Shown here piece after piece: positions 6,745 through 9,943 of a stretch of DNA of 41,621 nt. The number at the start of each line of letters is the position of its first letter. Positions within the stretch are counted from its first letter, which is position 1. Source of the DNA: a virus (lineage: Duplodnaviria; Heunggongvirae; Uroviricota; Caudoviricetes). A program made the translations under genes and the position numbers. The stretch lies in IMG/VR virus record IMGVR_UViG_644736364_000004; one strand, written 5' to 3'. A model generated the notes under the pieces. That model had not been told where the DNA came from. It searched no databases and saw nothing but the letters and a program-made list of their open reading frames with translations.

Positions 6745-6760
6745 TTAGCAAATGAATTTA

Positions 6761-7033
6761 TCATCTCGCCGTCAGTTGTTTTGATTTCCGGTAGCCTGCC
6801 GCGTAAAGAGCTACGTTCGGAAGACAAGTTGAACCTTCATATTTTCTGGTCAACGTTGTCAGAGTTATCACTTCTGCTCTCATTGCTGGTTTGAGCTTGC
6901 ATTGCAAGACCACTCGTGAAGGGGTTGGCCTGTGTAGCTTGTCGGAGCTGATCGCCTCCTGACTTTGCAGATTTGCGCGACGAGCTCTACGGCGAGAAGC
7001 TGCGGTGCCTTTAAATTCTGTTTTTCTGGACAT
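6761..7033 (-). CDS. N: N-like transcription antiterminator, 90 aa
   Basis: Start at the in-frame ATG at 7033, preceded by GGGAGG with 5-nt spacing; N-terminal arginine-rich motif (GTAASRRRARRANLQ) of the N family; sits between pL/nutL and the early genes. Not lambda N itself. Confidence 0.65.
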   Translation of the reverse strand: MSRKTEFKGTAASRRRARRANLQSQEAISSDKLHRPTPSRVVLQCKLKPAMRAEVITLTTLTRKYEGSTCLPNVALYAAGYRKSKQLTAR

Positions 7034-7131
7034 GGATTCCTCCCGAATAAACTTTGGCGATGCAATCTCGAAGCTCCTCCTGAGACGGTTGCTTCGGCAT
7101 TGCATCCCACAGCTTATGTGGTTGGGTGATC

Positions 7132-7177
7132 TGGCTTTTCAGCCACGTAGTCGAGAGTCGACGTTGTTTAAAGAGCC
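7132..7177 (-). promoter_or_regulatory. nutL candidate (boxA-like GGCTCTTTA plus boxB-like hairpin UGGCU-GAAA-AGCCA)
   Basis: Minus strand reads GGCTCTTTAAACAACG…GGCTGAAAAGCC; a nearly parallel arrangement (CGCTCTTTG…CGCTGAAAAGCG) occurs on the plus strand after cro at 9813-9858. Confidence 0.5.
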
Positions 7178-7270
7178 TGCCAGTCTGTTCCATTTGGCTT
7201 CCAGCGTCCTGCTGACGGTTAAATAGTACGATATGTACTTTACAAGATCAATACAATTTGTTGTAAGTTG
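7178..7270 (-). promoter_or_regulatory. pL/oL interval (candidate -35 TTGATC, 17-nt spacer, -10 TACTAT, with operator-like repeats)
   Basis: Minus strand contains TTGATCTTGTAAAGTACATATCGTACTAT and a TACAA-N4-TTGTA inverted repeat; the motifs AAAGTACATAT and TTGTATT recur in the cI-cro intergenic region. Confidence 0.4.
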
Positions 7271-7437
7271 GCGTGGTTTTTTATAACGCTTTGTATTTAA
7301 TAGTGTTGTTTTTTAGCGTGGATGTATTGCCTCGGCGATGTAAGGAGAGATCAGAATTGCGTGGTTTAGTGGGTTGCATCTATTTATTTTTCAATAAATA
7401 TAATTGGTTATGTGTTTTTAGGTGGGCGAACGTGAGG

Positions 7438-7464
7438 CAAAGAAAACCCGGCGCTGAGGCCGGG
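7438..7464 (-). terminator. Rho-independent terminator closing the cI operon
   Basis: On the minus strand, stem CCCGGC-CUCAGC-GCCGGG (plus 7447-7464) followed by UUUUCUUUG, beginning 6 nt after the stop of the 250-codon gene. Confidence 0.6.
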
Positions 7465-7469
7465 TTGTA

Positions 7470-8222
7470 TTATGCTGCAAGTCTCTTAACCCAAGTCTCT
7501 CTTTTGGAGAATGGTAGAACTTGGCTTGATTCATGGAAGAGTAAGGAGAGTTGTTGCATTTGATCACCAATTGCTTCGCTGTCTATAACAACAAATCTGT
7601 TGTTATACTCCTCACTTGAAGCTTTAAGATCAATTAGTTTCCCAAGCAATGAGTAAGCACTATTCCAGCTTCCTCCGTGTTTCACGCTTGATGTAAAAAC
7701 GTATTTAGGTATGTCGGTTTTTATTGTTACAGGGACGGTAATTTGATGTCCACTCAAGCCATATACGTTTTCACGAAGAGAAAGTGCGTCTCTAAGCTCT
7801 GTGTGATATAGATAATCAATAACCATACTTTCAAACTTTTCAGCTTGAACTGGCTGATACCAGTCTAACGACAAAGTTGATGCGAGTATACCAGCTCTAA
7901 TTATGTTCGATGTAATCGCACCGACATCCTTTTCTGTTGCCCAAGCAATGATTTCTCCTCGAGCATTGAGTTCTGCGCCTTCTTTAAGCAGTAATTGTCG
8001 TATCTCATCAAGTCGTTTTTTGGTAAGCGAGATCCCTCTTGCCTCCATATTCATTAAGGCATCGCATCTGTCACTAACTAAATACCTACCATTGACTTCA
8101 CGGATAAAGGCACCGACATGCTCTCCATCATCACAGTAAGTGAATGGACTGATAATTCTCAAGGTCTTGCCTATTGGATGGCATTCGAAACCTAGTTGTG
8201 AGATCACTGTTGAGCACATCAT
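7470..8222 (-). CDS. Uncharacterised protein, 250 aa; distal gene of the cassette downstream of cI (rexB-equivalent position)
   Basis: ATGATG start whose first codon overlaps the TGA of the upstream 185-codon ORF; followed by a terminator; AT-rich by inspection; no transmembrane segments and no family recognised. Confidence 0.65.
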   Translation of the reverse strand: MMCSTVISQLGFECHPIGKTLRIISPFTYCDDGEHVGAFIREVNGRYLVSDRCDALMNMEARGISLTKKRLDEIRQLLLKEGAELNARGEIIAWATEKDVGAITSNIIRAGILASTLSLDWYQPVQAEKFESMVIDYLYHTELRDALSLRENVYGLSGHQITVPVTIKTDIPKYVFTSSVKHGGSWNSAYSLLGKLIDLKASSEEYNNRFVVIDSEAIGDQMQQLSLLFHESSQVLPFSKRETWVKRLAA

Positions 8223-8776
8223 ATTCCAAACCCCATTTGCCCCGACTCATCTTCAAGCGGTAAAGGTATTCTCCCAGAGTAAGTTATGTTCAGATGTTTA
8301 CAGAAGTAATTCCAATACCCTACCAGGTCATCTGGGTTTATGTCATCTTCGATTGGAAACGCTATTCTATCACTATAGTATCCAGCTTCTTCATAGTATA
8401 CATGGTAGTGAGCACCGTAAATGATATCTTGGTACTTCGGATGATCGACCTTGTAACTATTCGTGTGTTTGTCAAAGTGATAGGTATCTACCGCGAAAAC
8501 CCTCTTGTTATGATAGAAAGCAATAATATTTATTTTAGGGTAAGAAATCGGGTCATCAGGTTCTGAATCCTGATCTGGTTTCCATTTCAGTTCAAACTTT
8601 AGCCCTTGTATAGGTATACAATCCTCATCCAAGGGGATGATATGGGCTTGTAGCCACATATCAGAGCGACTTGGTTTCTGTTTCCATTTAACGCCAGAAA
8701 AGTTAACTATTTTTTTACAATAAAGTACTTTATCAACTTCTACTTGGCTTGGCTGATAATCATCTATTTTTGCCAA
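8219..8776 (-). CDS. Uncharacterised protein, 185 aa; proximal gene of the cassette downstream of cI (rexA-equivalent position)
   Basis: ORF starts at a TTG directly after an in-frame stop, 39 nt downstream of the cI stop; His/Tyr/Asp-rich; no family recognised. The start codon is uncertain. Confidence 0.55.
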   Translation of the reverse strand: MAKIDDYQPSQVEVDKVLYCKKIVNFSGVKWKQKPSRSDMWLQAHIIPLDEDCIPIQGLKFELKWKPDQDSEPDDPISYPKINIIAFYHNKRVFAVDTYHFDKHTNSYKVDHPKYQDIIYGAHYHVYYEEAGYYSDRIAFPIEDDINPDDLVGYWNYFCKHLNITYSGRIPLPLEDESGQMGFGI

Positions 8777-8815
8777 TGTTTACCGCCCTGTAAATTGTAG
8801 ATAAAAGTGGTTTCA

Positions 8816-9469
8816 TCACCCAAACGTCTCTTCAGGCCATTGGCTGGCGATAACTTTCCCCACAACGGAACAACTCTCATTGCATGGGATCATTGGGTAT
8901 TGTGGGTTTAGTGGCTGTAGAAACACCTGACCGCTATCCCTGATCAGTTTCTTGAAGGTAAATTCATCACCACCAAGTCTGGCTATGCAGAAATCGCCGG
9001 GCTCAACAGCTTGCTCAGGGTCAACCAGAATTAACATCCCGTCAGGAAAGCTGGGTTTGGAACCTGTTGGTGCGGTCATTGAGTTACCTTCAACCTCAAG
9101 CCAGAATGCAGAGTCACTGGCTTTTTTGGTTGTGCTTACCAATCTCTCCGCATCGCCTTTGGTAAAGGTTCTGAGTTCTGGAGAGAACATCCCAGCCTGA
9201 ACATGAGAAAAAACAGGGTACTCATATTGTTTTTTAACTGGGGCCGATGAGTATTCGCCAACAGGTGAAAATGTCCCGTCGTGGTTGAATGATATGTTAT
9301 CAATACCAAGGTATTTAAACACCACACCAATATCACTAAGAGATGGATGACGAGATCCGCGCAACCAGTGTCCAATCCCACCCTGCGTCATACCTAGCTC
9401 TTCGGCTAACTTCTCTTGAGTTATGCCGAGCTCTTTCATTCTGGATCTAGCCAGTTCATACCATTTCAT
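8816..9469 (-). CDS. cI: CI-type prophage repressor (N-terminal HTH, C-terminal LexA/S24-like autopeptidase domain)
   Basis: HTH segment ([23 protein letters not shown]) and a C-terminal segment ([12 protein letters not shown] … FTFKKL) typical of S24-type repressors. Start chosen at the ATG at 9469 (AAGGA 7 nt upstream); alternative in-frame ATGs at 9475 and 9511. Confidence 0.85.
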
Positions 9470-9586
9470 TTTCATGTCCTTATTATTACGCTCTGTACTG
9501 GAACCATCCATGCACAATGTGTATTTTTACTTGTATTCGCAAAGTACATATTGTATTTTTTTATTCGTGTTTACTATGGAGGGCAT
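9470..9586. promoter_or_regulatory. Divergent cI/cro control region (oR with pR and pRM)
   Basis: AT-rich intergenic region with three direct copies of TGTATT and the AAAGTACATAT element shared with the pL region; specific operators not resolved. Confidence 0.5.
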
Positions 9587-9802
9587 ATGAGCAACCTACG
9601 AAAATATCGAGAGTCACTGAATATCTCTCAAACAACACTTGCTAAGGCAGTTGGATGCACACAGGGAGCTATCGGACATTGGGAATCTGGTCGTCGCTTC
9701 CCAGACCTTAAAACATGCCGTGCTCTTGTTGCGTGCCTAAACAAGTTAGGCGCAAAAGTCAGTCTTGATGACGTGTTCCCGCCGGAACACAAAGCCGCTT
9801 AA
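9587..9802 (+). CDS. cro: Cro-like HTH regulator, 71 aa
   Basis: ATG at 9587 preceded by GGAGGG; HTH (QTTLAKAVGCTQGAIGHWESG); divergent from cI. Confidence 0.8.
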   Translation: MSNLRKYRESLNISQTTLAKAVGCTQGAIGHWESGRRFPDLKTCRALVACLNKLGAKVSLDDVFPPEHKAA

Positions 9803-9812
9803 TAAGCGGATC

Positions 9813-9858
9813 CGCTCTTTGTAACAACGGACATTCGTCCTACGTCGCTGAAAAGCGA
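9813..9858 (+). promoter_or_regulatory. nutR candidate (boxA-like CGCTCTTTG plus boxB-like hairpin UCGCU-GAAA-AGCGA)
   Basis: Located just after the cro stop; parallels the nutL candidate element for element. A 12-bp palindrome AGCGGATCCGCT (9804-9815) lies immediately upstream. Confidence 0.5.
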
Positions 9859-9943
9859 GTTCCAAGATATCTGACCAACTAAGGCCATATGCGTTTCCAC
9901 GCATACCTTTCAACTAACTATTCACTATTGGAAATCTTAAGAA

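What the first reader, a model, noticed from the sequence alone, without database searches (positions are those of the whole stretch)
6745..9943. Immunity-region swap: non-lambda N, nut sites and cI/cro between lambda-type flanks
Seen in sequence: exo through sieB and cII through ninB read as lambda, but N (ARM GTAASRRRARRANLQ), cI and cro are different proteins. Candidate nutL (7132-7177, minus) and nutR (9813-9858, plus) are near-parallel copies (boxA-like GCTCTTT, spacer AACAACG, boxB-like hairpin with GAAA loop), and the pL and pR regions share the motifs AAAGTACATAT and TTGTATT. Inference: an exchanged immunity module, with junctions between sieB and N and between nutR and cII, that carries the unknown two-gene cassette with it.
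Basis: partly seen in the sequence, partly recalled or inferred. Interest (0 to 1): 0.4.

Follow-up and report, generated by a model that had tools for sequence, protein, structure and literature searches.

The report
Known VT2-Sakai-type immunity region mosaic
This is the ordinary regulatory "immunity" region of a mosaic lambda-like phage: its repressor, Cro, operators and N/nut sites are those already known from the Shiga-toxin phages VT2-Sakai and Stx2 phage II, and the unknown two-gene insert beside the repressor is a separately exchangeable passenger, not part of that module.

Summary
The sequence features are real.

The interpretation needs correcting in four ways:
- **Known type.** cI (219/219 aa) and Cro (71/71 aa) are identical to those of Stx2 phage II. 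N is 98.9% identical to VT2-Sakai N. oR1-3 and oL1 are identical to the putative operators annotated in AP005154. The whole stretch is 100% identical to the sequenced phages ev207, ev017, PhiR63_2 and PhiR57_1.
- **Junctions misplaced.** Lambda homology ends at 6142, upstream of sieB, which is the P22 type. It resumes at 10178, inside cII just past the oop terminator.
- **Internal mosaic.** There is a lambda-like tImm patch at 7345-7466, and the C-terminal domain of cI (8815-9226) is lambda's. The last 24 aa of N are shared with other N families.
- **Cassette travels separately.** The same immunity type carries other cargo elsewhere. The same cassette sits behind unrelated repressors in E. coli, Salmonella, Pectobacterium and Aeromonas prophages.

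Two details are mildly interesting. boxB has a true GNRA tetraloop that co-varies with the arginine-rich motif (ARM) of N. The cassette is a distant relative of the untested PADLOC candidate PDC-M24, in the rexAB slot.

The parts
6163..6744 (+). sieB, P22-type allele. Not lambda-type and not part of the VT2-Sakai block.
   Evidence: Pfam SieB 2.5e-22. 18% aa identity to lambda SieB; 82% to P22 SieB and 93% to HK140. The DNA aligns with the P22 sieB region. Lambda homology ends at 6142.
6761..7033 (-). Antiterminator N, VT2-Sakai type, 90 aa. ARM is KGTAASRRRARRANLQSQE. The C-terminal 24 aa are shared with the P22 gp24 and H-19B/933W-type N proteins.
   Evidence: Pfam N_peptide 1.5e-32. 98.9% identical to VT2-Sakai N. 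C-terminal-only matches to other N proteins.
7045..7113 (-). Long hairpin in the N leader between nutL and the N ribosome-binding site. By position it is the analogue of the RNase III-sensitive hairpin in the lambda N leader (inference).
   Evidence: Inverted repeat I10, 7059-7074 / 7091-7106. Fold of the leader has z = -3.8. The hairpin is conserved in Shigella phage 75/02.
7132..7176 (-). nutL: boxA GCUCUUUAAACAA (7176-7164), spacer hairpin GUCGA-CUC-UCGAC (7162-7150), boxB UGGCU-GAAA-AGCCA (7145-7132).
   Evidence: Identical in VT2-Sakai and Stx2 II. The boxB loop is GCAA in phage 75/02.
7216..7251 (-). Predicted pL: -35 TTGATC (7251-7246), 17-bp spacer, -10 TACTAT (7228-7223), start near 7216 (GTCAGCAGGACG leader).
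   Evidence: Read directly from the sequence. The leader is homologous to the annotated P22 and lambda pL transcript 5' ends. This is inference: the consensus scan did not list it.
7224..7298 (.). oL1 7224-7240 TAGTACGATATGTACTT; oL2 7249-7265 CAATACAATTTGTTGTA; oL3 7282-7298 TATAACGCTTTGTATTT.
   Evidence: Homologous to the putative operators annotated in AP005154. oL1 is identical; oL2 and oL3 differ by 1 nt each. TACN4TGTA is enriched: 7 found against 2.1 expected, and 3 of the 6 operators contain an exact match, 4 of the 7 matches.
7345..7466 (-). Lambda-like patch equal to lambda 35708-35826, ending in the intrinsic terminator tImm (7466-7445). It forms the left flank of the cargo slot.
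   Evidence: 90% identity to lambda. Terminator scan. The patch is present in more than 1,200 E. coli genomes next to different cargo.
7470..8222 (-). Cassette gene B, 250 aa, DUF1828. Distant match to PADLOC PDC-M24B. The model has two domains.
8219..8776 (-). Cassette gene A, 185 aa, TTG start, overlaps B by 4 nt. Beta-rich. Invariant residues D97, D102, H104, N106 and the stretch G-x-H-x-H-x3-E (121-129).
8816..9475 (-). cI repressor. The HTH_3 N-terminal domain is VT2-Sakai-specific; the S24 C-terminal domain is lambda's (DNA 8815-9226 is 93% identical to lambda). Database records start it at ATG 9511, which lies inside oR2. I infer a lambda-like leaderless start at 9475.
   Evidence: Pfam HTH_3 and Peptidase_S24. 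Comparison with lambda cI. 219/219 identical to Stx2 II cI. Record annotations.
9484..9559 (.). oR3 9484-9500 TATTACGCTCTGTACTG; oR2 9510-9526 ATGCACAATGTGTATTT; oR1 9542-9558 AAGTACATATTGTATTT. Predicted pR: -35 TTGTAT 9531-9536, -10 TATTTT 9554-9559.
   Evidence: All three are identical to the operators annotated in AP005154. oL1/oR1 form inverted repeat I2. The promoter hexamers are inference.
9587..9802 (+). Cro, 71 aa, HTH_3 type, not the lambda Cro fold family.
   Evidence: Pfam HTH_3 4.2e-12. No alignment to lambda Cro. 71/71 identical to Stx2 II Cro.
9814..9858 (+). nutR: boxA GCUCUUUGUAACAA (9814-9827), spacer hairpin GGAC-AUUC-GUCC (9829-9840), boxB UCGCU-GAAA-AGCGA (9845-9858).
   Evidence: Identical in VT2-Sakai and Stx2 II. 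Stx1_121427 has the same scaffold with loop GACAA, paired with an H-19B/933W-type N.
9944..10240 (+). cII, chimeric. Residues 1-79 are VT2-Sakai type; the last 19 aa are lambda type. The junction at 10177/10178 lies just past the oop terminator (10216-10189, minus).
   Evidence: Pfam Phage_CII 7e-34. Comparison with lambda cII. Junction alignment. Terminator and pO-like hits. 84/98 identical to Stx2 II cII, differing at the C-terminus.

Best explanation
The interval is the early regulatory region of a natural lambdoid mosaic: lambda-type recombination and replication arms, phage 21-type late genes, and the immunity type already known from VT2-Sakai (Sp5) and Stx2 phage II.

How it works, by homology with lambda:
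- cI dimers bind six 17-bp operators (consensus roughly wAgTACa-N4-TGTAyTt), three at pL and three at pR/pRM. cI has a type-specific HTH_3 N-terminal domain fused to a C-terminal domain that matches lambda's cooperativity and RecA-cleavage domain with one substitution.
- Cro is an HTH_3 protein and is expected to use the same operators.
- N binds the boxB hairpins of nutL and nutR through its arginine-rich motif and, with boxA and the Nus factors, makes RNA polymerase resistant to terminators.
- In this type boxB is a 5-bp stem closed by U-A with a true GNRA tetraloop (GAAA or GCAA), and N lacks the Trp18 of lambda N. The loop co-varies with the N ARM type, so it is the specificity determinant.

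How it was assembled: recombination at short conserved stretches, namely upstream of sieB, at the N 3' end, at the tImm patch, in the cI C-terminal domain, and at the oop / cII 3' end.

The two-gene cassette occupies the rexAB position. It forms the operon cI-A-B-tImm and so should be expressed in the lysogen. It is an independently exchanged passenger, most likely a superinfection-exclusion or abortive-infection system.

Shown here: sequence identities, junctions, repeats, folds and gene context. Inferred: binding, antitermination, promoter positions and cassette function.
For: - Identity to sequenced phages: 100% over 6000-10600 to ev207, ev017, PhiR63_2 and PhiR57_1.
- Same immunity type as VT2-Sakai/Stx2 II: N is 98.9% identical to VT2-Sakai N. 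cI 219/219, Cro 71/71, and oR1-3 and oL1 are identical to Stx2 II. Both nut sites are identical to VT2-Sakai and Stx2 II.
- Prior description: PMC10742460, citing Fattah et al. 2000, describes the VT2-Sa immunity region as having six operators and a cI with a lambda-like C-terminal domain and a dissimilar N-terminal domain.
- Junctions. Protein comparisons with lambda.
- Other modules: sieB is P22 type. The N C-terminus is shared with other N families.
- nut statistics and folds. nutL and nutR boxB stems differ by a compensatory G-C to C-G change.
- Loop/ARM co-variation: VT2-Sakai-type ARM with GAAA or GCAA; H-19B/933W-type and P22-type ARMs with GACAA, including on an otherwise near-identical nutR scaffold.
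- Cassette independence and operon context. tImm directly follows gene B.
- The cI-N interval is a recognised mosaic hotspot that holds rexAB and bstA (PMC8585504).
Against: - Nothing here was tested functionally.
- The operators in AP005154 are themselves labelled 'putative'.
- I found no experimental study of this N/nut class in the searchable library.
- The simple sigma-70 scan did not report my pL and pR hexamers.
- The cassette's link to defence rests on position, a distant match to an untested PADLOC candidate (the A component only at E about 5e-4) and fold-level hints. No canonical PD-(D/E)xK catalytic motif is evident in protein B.
- The window's O gene and ori carry a 67-bp frameshifting deletion, so this particular copy may not be a viable phage.
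Confidence: 0.9

Rival explanations
1. One reading: one exchanged immunity module, bounded by sieB|N on the left and nutR|cII on the right, that brought the two-gene cassette with it.
For: Relative to Stx2 II, homology does begin exactly at the N stop codon, 6761. N, cro and the cI N-terminal domain are non-lambda.
Against: - Lambda homology ends at 6142 and resumes at 10178, inside cII.
- sieB is P22 type.
- Lambda-like patches lie inside the interval.
- The same immunity type occurs with other cargo. The same cassette occurs with a different cI/cro and N and with unrelated repressors in other genera.
Confidence: 0.04
2. The region is a new, undescribed immunity specificity.
For: It does not match the classical lambda or P22 repressor/Cro; 434 and 21 are excluded only from remembered sequences, as their immunity regions were never fetched.
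Against: cI and Cro are 100% identical to those of Stx2 phage II, and the operators are the same. N and both nut sites match VT2-Sakai. The VT2-Sa immunity region has been described.
Confidence: 0.01
3. The boxB-like hairpins are not N-utilisation sites. They could be chance hairpins, terminators or Rho-related elements, with the true nut sites elsewhere.
For: No record annotates nut sites for this type. Rfam has no matching family. A tetraloop departs from the canonical pentaloop boxB.
Against: - boxA and boxB occur only twice, in the same register and in the canonical positions: pL-nutL-N and cro-nutR-tR1-cII.
- The stems differ by a compensatory change.
- The loop tracks the N ARM type across phages on an otherwise conserved scaffold.
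- No T-tract follows the hairpins.
Confidence: 0.03
4. On the cassette only: it is not an anti-phage system. It could be another lysogen-expressed function, such as a toxin-antitoxin or addiction pair, a regulator of induction, or a host-fitness moron.
For: No known defence family matches strongly. Protein A has no structural relative. Protein B lacks an obvious canonical nuclease motif (alignment A2). Part of protein B resembles a chaperone/YbjN-like fold.
Against: - It sits in the exact rexAB/bstA slot, directly behind the repressor, in four genera and with unrelated repressor families.
- Both genes hit the two components of the same PADLOC candidate, in the same order.
- There is fold resemblance to Can2/Card1, Bax1 and restriction nucleases.
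Confidence: 0.35

Closest known systems
Immunity region of VT2-Sakai (Sp5) / Stx2 converting phage II (AP005154) / Stx1 converting phage (AP005153)
   Same: cI (219 aa) and Cro are identical. oR1-3 and oL1 are identical. N is 98.9% identical. nutL and nutR are identical. The same lambda-like tImm patch and lambda-like cI C-terminal domain are present.
   Different: The cargo between cI and tImm differs (one 173-aa ORF in VT2-Sakai and Stx2 II). There is no sieB in those phages. The cII C-terminus and O/P are HK022-like/DnaB-type there and lambda-type here. oL2 and oL3 each differ by 1 nt.
Phage lambda immunity region (cI-rexA-rexB-tImm, oL/oR, N, nutL/nutR)
   Same: Same gene order and logic. 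The cI C-terminal domain matches with one substitution and includes the Ala-Gly cleavage site region. The tImm patch and the cII C-terminus/oop are shared. The ARM of N aligns with lambda's (RRRxRRA). The boxB stem is closed by U-A with a GAAA-type loop.
   Different: The cI N-terminal domain, Cro, the operators, most of N, sieB and most of cII are unrelated or highly diverged. boxB has a 4-nt loop where lambda has 5. N has Glu where lambda N has Trp18. rexAB is replaced.
H-19B / 933W-type N and nut sites (nutR studied in PMC3526286)
   Same: [quoted passage not shown] The nutR of Stx1_121427 shares the spacer hairpin and boxB stem with the window almost base for base. The N C-terminus is shared.
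   Different: The N proteins are about 41% identical, with a different ARM (NSRSRRRERLKAK). The boxB loop is GACAA (pentaloop, P22-like) rather than GAAA.
RexAB (lambda) and BstA (BTP1): lysogen-expressed abortive-infection genes downstream of the prophage repressor
   Same: Same slot and same orientation as the repressor, followed by a terminator, and conserved across diverse prophages.
   Different: No sequence or family similarity to RexA, RexB or BstA. Mechanism unknown.
PADLOC candidate system PDC-M24 (A+B)
   Same: Two adjacent genes in the order A then B. B matches over its full length (E 4.7e-10; 23/23 homologues). A matches over its C-terminal third.
   Different: The matches are distant. 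A is near the noise level (E about 5e-4; the two PDC-M24A models match 5 and 3 of 18 homologues). PDC-M24 is itself only a computational candidate, and no paper on it was found.

Membership tests
VT2-Sakai / Stx2 phage II immunity type | Same repressor and Cro sequence | tested here: met
   cI 219/219 and Cro 71/71 identical to AP005154.
VT2-Sakai / Stx2 phage II immunity type | Same operator set at pL and pR | tested here: met
   oR1, oR2, oR3 and oL1 are identical. oL2 and oL3 differ by 1 nt each from the operators annotated in AP005154.
VT2-Sakai / Stx2 phage II immunity type | Homoimmunity in vivo: a lysogen excludes VT2-Sakai-type phages by repression | not testable with these tools
   Needs superinfection assays.
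Lambda immunity (imm-lambda) | Lambda cI DNA-binding domain, lambda Cro and lambda operators | tested here: not met
   The cI N-terminal domain is about 25% identical over the HTH. Cro does not align. There is no DNA homology across 9229-10177.
Lambdoid N/nut processive antitermination | Small basic N protein with an N-terminal arginine-rich motif | tested here: met
   Pfam N_peptide 1.5e-32. The ARM aligns with lambda and P22 N.
Lambdoid N/nut processive antitermination | boxA plus boxB hairpin on both early transcripts, downstream of pL and downstream of cro | tested here: met
   Exactly two copies, in register and in the canonical positions.
Lambdoid N/nut processive antitermination | boxB loop of the GNRA-like pentaloop type (lambda GAAAA/GAAGA, P22 GACAA) | tested here: not met
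   The loop is a 4-nt GNRA tetraloop (GAAA; GCAA in phage 75/02), one base shorter. This is a variant of the family feature, not an exclusion from the mechanism.
Lambdoid N/nut processive antitermination | N- and Nus-dependent readthrough of terminators | not testable with these tools
   Needs reporter or in vitro transcription assays.
LexA/S24 autocleaving repressors | S24 peptidase domain with the cleavage site and catalytic residues | tested here: met
   Peptidase_S24 1.1e-28. Residues 82-219 match lambda cI 100-237 apart from one L/W change, so they include its Ala-Gly site and Ser/Lys dyad (the residue roles are from established knowledge of lambda cI).
RexAB | Homology to RexA and RexB | tested here: not met
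   No Pfam, PHROG or PADLOC match to Rex. Only the position is shared.
PADLOC PDC-M24 candidate | Adjacent A and B genes that both match the PDC-M24 HMMs | tested here: inconclusive
   B: 4.7e-10, matched by 23/23 homologues. A: 4.8e-4, with the two PDC-M24A models matching 5 and 3 of 18 homologues.
PADLOC PDC-M24 candidate | Anti-phage activity | not testable with these tools
   No experimental report found.
PD-(D/E)xK nucleases (cassette protein B) | Restriction-endonuclease-like fold | tested here: inconclusive
PD-(D/E)xK nucleases (cassette protein B) | Conserved D...(D/E)xK catalytic motif | tested here: inconclusive
   The invariant residues of the C-terminal domain (H159, K173, D198, D214) do not form an obvious canonical motif in alignment A2. 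No structure-based residue mapping was possible.

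The most novel reading that the evidence does not exclude
The most novel reading left open concerns the passengers and details, not the immunity swap.

(a) The cI-linked A+B cassette may be an uncharacterised two-gene abortive-infection or exclusion system. A is a beta-rich protein with an invariant HxHx3E cluster. B has a YbjN/chaperone-like domain plus a restriction-endonuclease-like domain. The cassette rides in the repressor operon of unrelated prophages from Escherichia to Aeromonas and is present in about 4% of complete E. 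coli genomes, including the type strain.

(b) The VT2-Sakai N/boxB pair may be a natural N-nut specificity class. It uses a true GNRA tetraloop, with no extruded base and no Trp18 equivalent. It differs from H-19B nutR essentially by one loop nucleotide, which would make it a clean natural specificity switch.

The probability given is for (a).
Probability: 0.45. Interest if true: 0.45.

Novelty: already known. Interest (0 to 1): 0.15.

Why it matters
As stated, the finding is textbook lambdoid mosaicism involving an immunity type described in about 2000 for the Shiga-toxin phage VT2-Sakai. It changes nothing conceptually.

Practical value is modest:
- It predicts that this prophage, found in commensal and ECOR E. 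coli and in infant-gut isolates, is homoimmune with clinically important Stx2 phages of the Sp5 type. That could affect Stx-phage lysogenisation of commensals.
- It maps recombination joints precisely to conserved linkers: the sieB upstream region, the N 3' end, tImm, the cI C-terminal domain and oop.
- It flags an untested, widely distributed cargo pair in the rexAB slot.
- It flags a tetraloop boxB whose loop tracks the N ARM type.

Tried and rejected
- Rfam, at gathering and at E-value thresholds, found no nut/boxB family. The only hit in the window was Lambda_thermo in the cIII leader.
- Profile searches of both cassette proteins against PDB sequences found nothing below E = 0.2.
- A genome-contig scan with N returned only 4 loci, too few for a covariance model of the nut sites. 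I used hand-picked phages instead.
- Literature searches for PDC-M24, DUF1828 and DUF6978 found nothing relevant. Searches for an experimental study of the VT2-Sakai N/nut pair found none.
- The consensus promoter scan did not list pL or pR. Their positions are inferred from operator geometry and leader homology.
- Considered and rejected: a laboratory imm-hybrid, because the same sequence is in natural isolates and in 238 complete genomes. Also rejected: an H-19B or HK97-type N, which is only 41% identical with a different ARM and loop.
- Several loci fetched in parallel calls never reached the Python sandbox, so some comparisons were done with the alignment tools instead.

Full report
**What is there.** The window is a complete lambdoid prophage in prophage order, from integrase at 1-1143 to tail fibres near the end. 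Over 6000-10600 it is 100% identical to the sequenced phages ev207, ev017, PhiR63_2 and PhiR57_1. Its late genes are 99.3% identical to those of phage 21.

The genes in and around the finding are:
- sieB, 6163-6744 (+)
- N, 6761-7033 (-)
- two overlapping unknown genes, 7470-8222 and 8219-8776 (-)
- cI, 8816-9475 (-)
- cro, 9587-9802 (+)
- cII, 9944-10240 (+)

**Checking the observation.**
- The two longest inverted repeats in 6700-10000 are the two boxB regions (7128-7150 and 9840-9862) and oL1/oR1 (7221-7241 and 9541-9561).
- GCTCTTT-N1-2-AACAACG and CTACGTSGCTGAAAAGCSAG each occur exactly twice in 41.6 kb, at the proposed nutL and nutR, with none expected by chance.
- The two sites are in the same register: boxA, a short spacer hairpin, UACG, then boxB. 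Both boxB elements fold as 5-bp stems with a GAAA loop, and the stems differ by one compensatory G-C to C-G exchange.
- The motifs AAAGTACATAT and TTGTATT are parts of 17-bp operators.

- SieB is 18% identical to lambda SieB and 82% identical to P22 SieB.
- cI is a chimera. Residues 82-219 match the C-terminal domain of lambda cI with one substitution, and only the HTH domain differs.
- cII shares only its last 19 residues with lambda cII.
- N resembles lambda N only in the arginine-rich motif (ARM), and Cro not at all.

**Breakpoints.** Against lambda, the homologous blocks are:

| Window | Identity | Content |
|---|---|---|
| 2068-6142 | 97% | left arm |
| 7345-7466 | 90% | stretch from just past oL3 to the rexB stop, including the tImm terminator |
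| 8815-9226 | 93% | cI C-terminal domain, starting exactly at the stop codon |
| 10178 onward | 97% | cII 3' end, O, P, ren, ninB |

The right-hand joint lies immediately beyond the oop terminator at 10189-10216.

Against Stx2 phage II the shared blocks are 6761-7467 (93%) and 8818-10280 (97%), so the N stop codon is a joint relative to that phage. The last 24 residues of N are shared with the P22 gp24 and H-19B/933W-type N proteins, so there is a further joint inside N.

The interval is therefore a patchwork of at least five segments, not one module.

**Identification.**
- N is 98.9% identical to the N of VT2-Sakai and of many Stx phages.
- cI (219/219) and Cro (71/71) are identical to those of Stx2 phage II.
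- The three oR operators and oL1 are identical to the putative operators annotated in AP005154. oL2 and oL3 differ by one base each.
- nutL and nutR are base-for-base identical in VT2-Sakai and Stx2 II.
- Fattah et al. 2000 described the VT2-Sa immunity region as having six operators and a CI with a lambda-like C-terminal region and a dissimilar N-terminal region. This is as cited in PMC10742460, which also reports that lambda CI binds these operators weakly in vitro.

This is a known immunity type.

**How it most likely works.** By homology with lambda:
- cI represses pL and pR through oL1-3 and oR1-3. I infer pL as -35 TTGATC 7251-7246, -10 TACTAT 7228-7223, with a start near 7216, supported by the conserved GTCAGCAGGACG leader.
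- The operator spacing relative to the cI coding region mirrors lambda. This suggests a leaderless cI mRNA starting at ATG 9475 rather than at the annotated ATG 9511, which lies inside oR2. This is inference.
- N binds boxB.

The informative comparison is across phages:

| Phage | N ARM | boxB loop(s) |
|---|---|---|
| Window, VT2-Sakai, Stx2 II | KGTAASRRRARRANLQ | GAAA |
| Shigella phage 75/02 | KGTAASRRRAHRAELQ | GCAA (nutL), GAAA (nutR) |
| Stx1_121427 (H-19B/933W type) | NSRSRRRERLKAK | GACAA |
| Min27, P22, E. albertii prophage | H-19B/933W or P22 type | GACAA |

The nutR of Stx1_121427 has the same spacer hairpin and the same UCGCU/AGCGA stem as the window, and differs in the loop. Loop and ARM therefore co-vary on a conserved scaffold. 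This is good evidence that these are the functional nut sites and that the loop sets specificity.

Compared with lambda, the loop is one base shorter, so it is a true GNRA tetraloop. N also has Glu where lambda N has Trp18. [quoted passage not shown]

**The cassette.** Genes A (185 aa) and B (250 aa) overlap by 4 nt. They follow cI after a 39-nt gap in the same orientation and end 3 nt before the lambda-like tImm terminator. The operon cI-A-B-tImm is therefore the exact counterpart of cI-rexA-rexB-tImm.

The cassette is not tied to this immunity type.
- VT2-Sakai and Stx2 II carry a single 173-aa ORF in this position.
- E. coli 2013C-4830 has the same-length cI with a different gene pair.
- Strain 98195 has a lambda-type cI/cro with a Clp-fold serine protease in the slot.
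- Stx1_121427 carries this same cassette (98.5%) with a different cI/cro and N.
- The flanks occur in 1,226 of 5,426 complete E. coli genomes. The cassette occurs in 238 of them, including the type strain ATCC 11775.
- Homologous A+B pairs sit directly behind unrelated repressors, both S24 type and short CI_repr/HTH types, in Salmonella, Pectobacterium and Aeromonas prophages.

On function:
- Both proteins are distant matches to the two components of the untested PADLOC candidate PDC-M24.
- The model of A (pLDDT 82) has no structural relative. It carries an invariant G-x-H-x-H-x3-E stretch.
- The cI-N interval is a recognised mosaic hotspot that houses rexAB and bstA (PMC8585504).

A lysogen-expressed exclusion or abortive-infection role is the best guess. 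I put it at about 45-50%. It is untested.

**Verdict.** The region is a member of an already known immunity type, present identically in several sequenced phages. Interest is low. The residual interest lies in the untested cassette and in the tetraloop boxB/ARM specificity pair.

Noticed in passing
window 10619/10620 (gene O / ori; ORFs 10273-10737 and 10614-11105): There is a 67-bp deletion relative to lambda and PhiR63_2, between direct repeats TATCCCTCAAAAC (iteron 1 and iteron 4). It leaves one ori iteron and frameshifts O. This copy may be replication-defective, or the assembly may be wrong.
   Followed up: partly
window 7045-7113 (-): A long stable hairpin lies in the N leader between nutL and the N ribosome-binding site, and is conserved in Shigella phage 75/02. 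By position it is the analogue of the RNase III-sensitive hairpin in the lambda N leader.
   Followed up: partly
window 9475 vs 9511 (cI start): Database records start cI at ATG 9511, which lies inside oR2 and upstream of the pRM annotated in AP005154. Lambda-like geometry favours a leaderless start at ATG 9475, or at 9469.
   Followed up: partly
window 6761-6832 (N C-terminal 24 aa) and L023, L025, L019: The C-terminal ...CLPNVALYAAGYRKSKQLTAR segment of N is shared among VT2-Sakai-type, H-19B/933W-type and P22-type N proteins that have unrelated middles and different ARMs. It looks like a conserved module and recombination joint.
   Followed up: partly
window 15009-16151 (-): A phage-borne Gram-negative porin gene of 380 aa (Porin_1, 2e-151) lies in the late regulatory/lysis region, like the Lc/NmpC porins of other lambdoid prophages.
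   Followed up: no
window 5080-5138 (-): Rfam Lambda_thermo (the cIII thermoregulator) scores 88.5 bits. It is the only Rfam family in the window.
   Followed up: no
window 12141-12146 vs PhiR63_2 (L001 9214-9920): PhiR63_2 carries an IS200-family insertion between ren and ninB that the window lacks. Otherwise the two are nearly identical here.
   Followed up: no
window 12541-13128 (+): A Dam-type N6-adenine methyltransferase (Pfam Dam, 5.5e-65) replaces lambda ninC after ninB.
   Followed up: no
L017 (E. coli 98195) and L018 (E. coli 2013C-4830): Between the same conserved flanks (tImm patch and cI 3' end), other prophages carry an SDH-family Clp-fold serine protease or a different two-gene pair (206 + 144 aa). 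This is a ready-made catalogue of cargo for the rexAB slot.
   Followed up: partly
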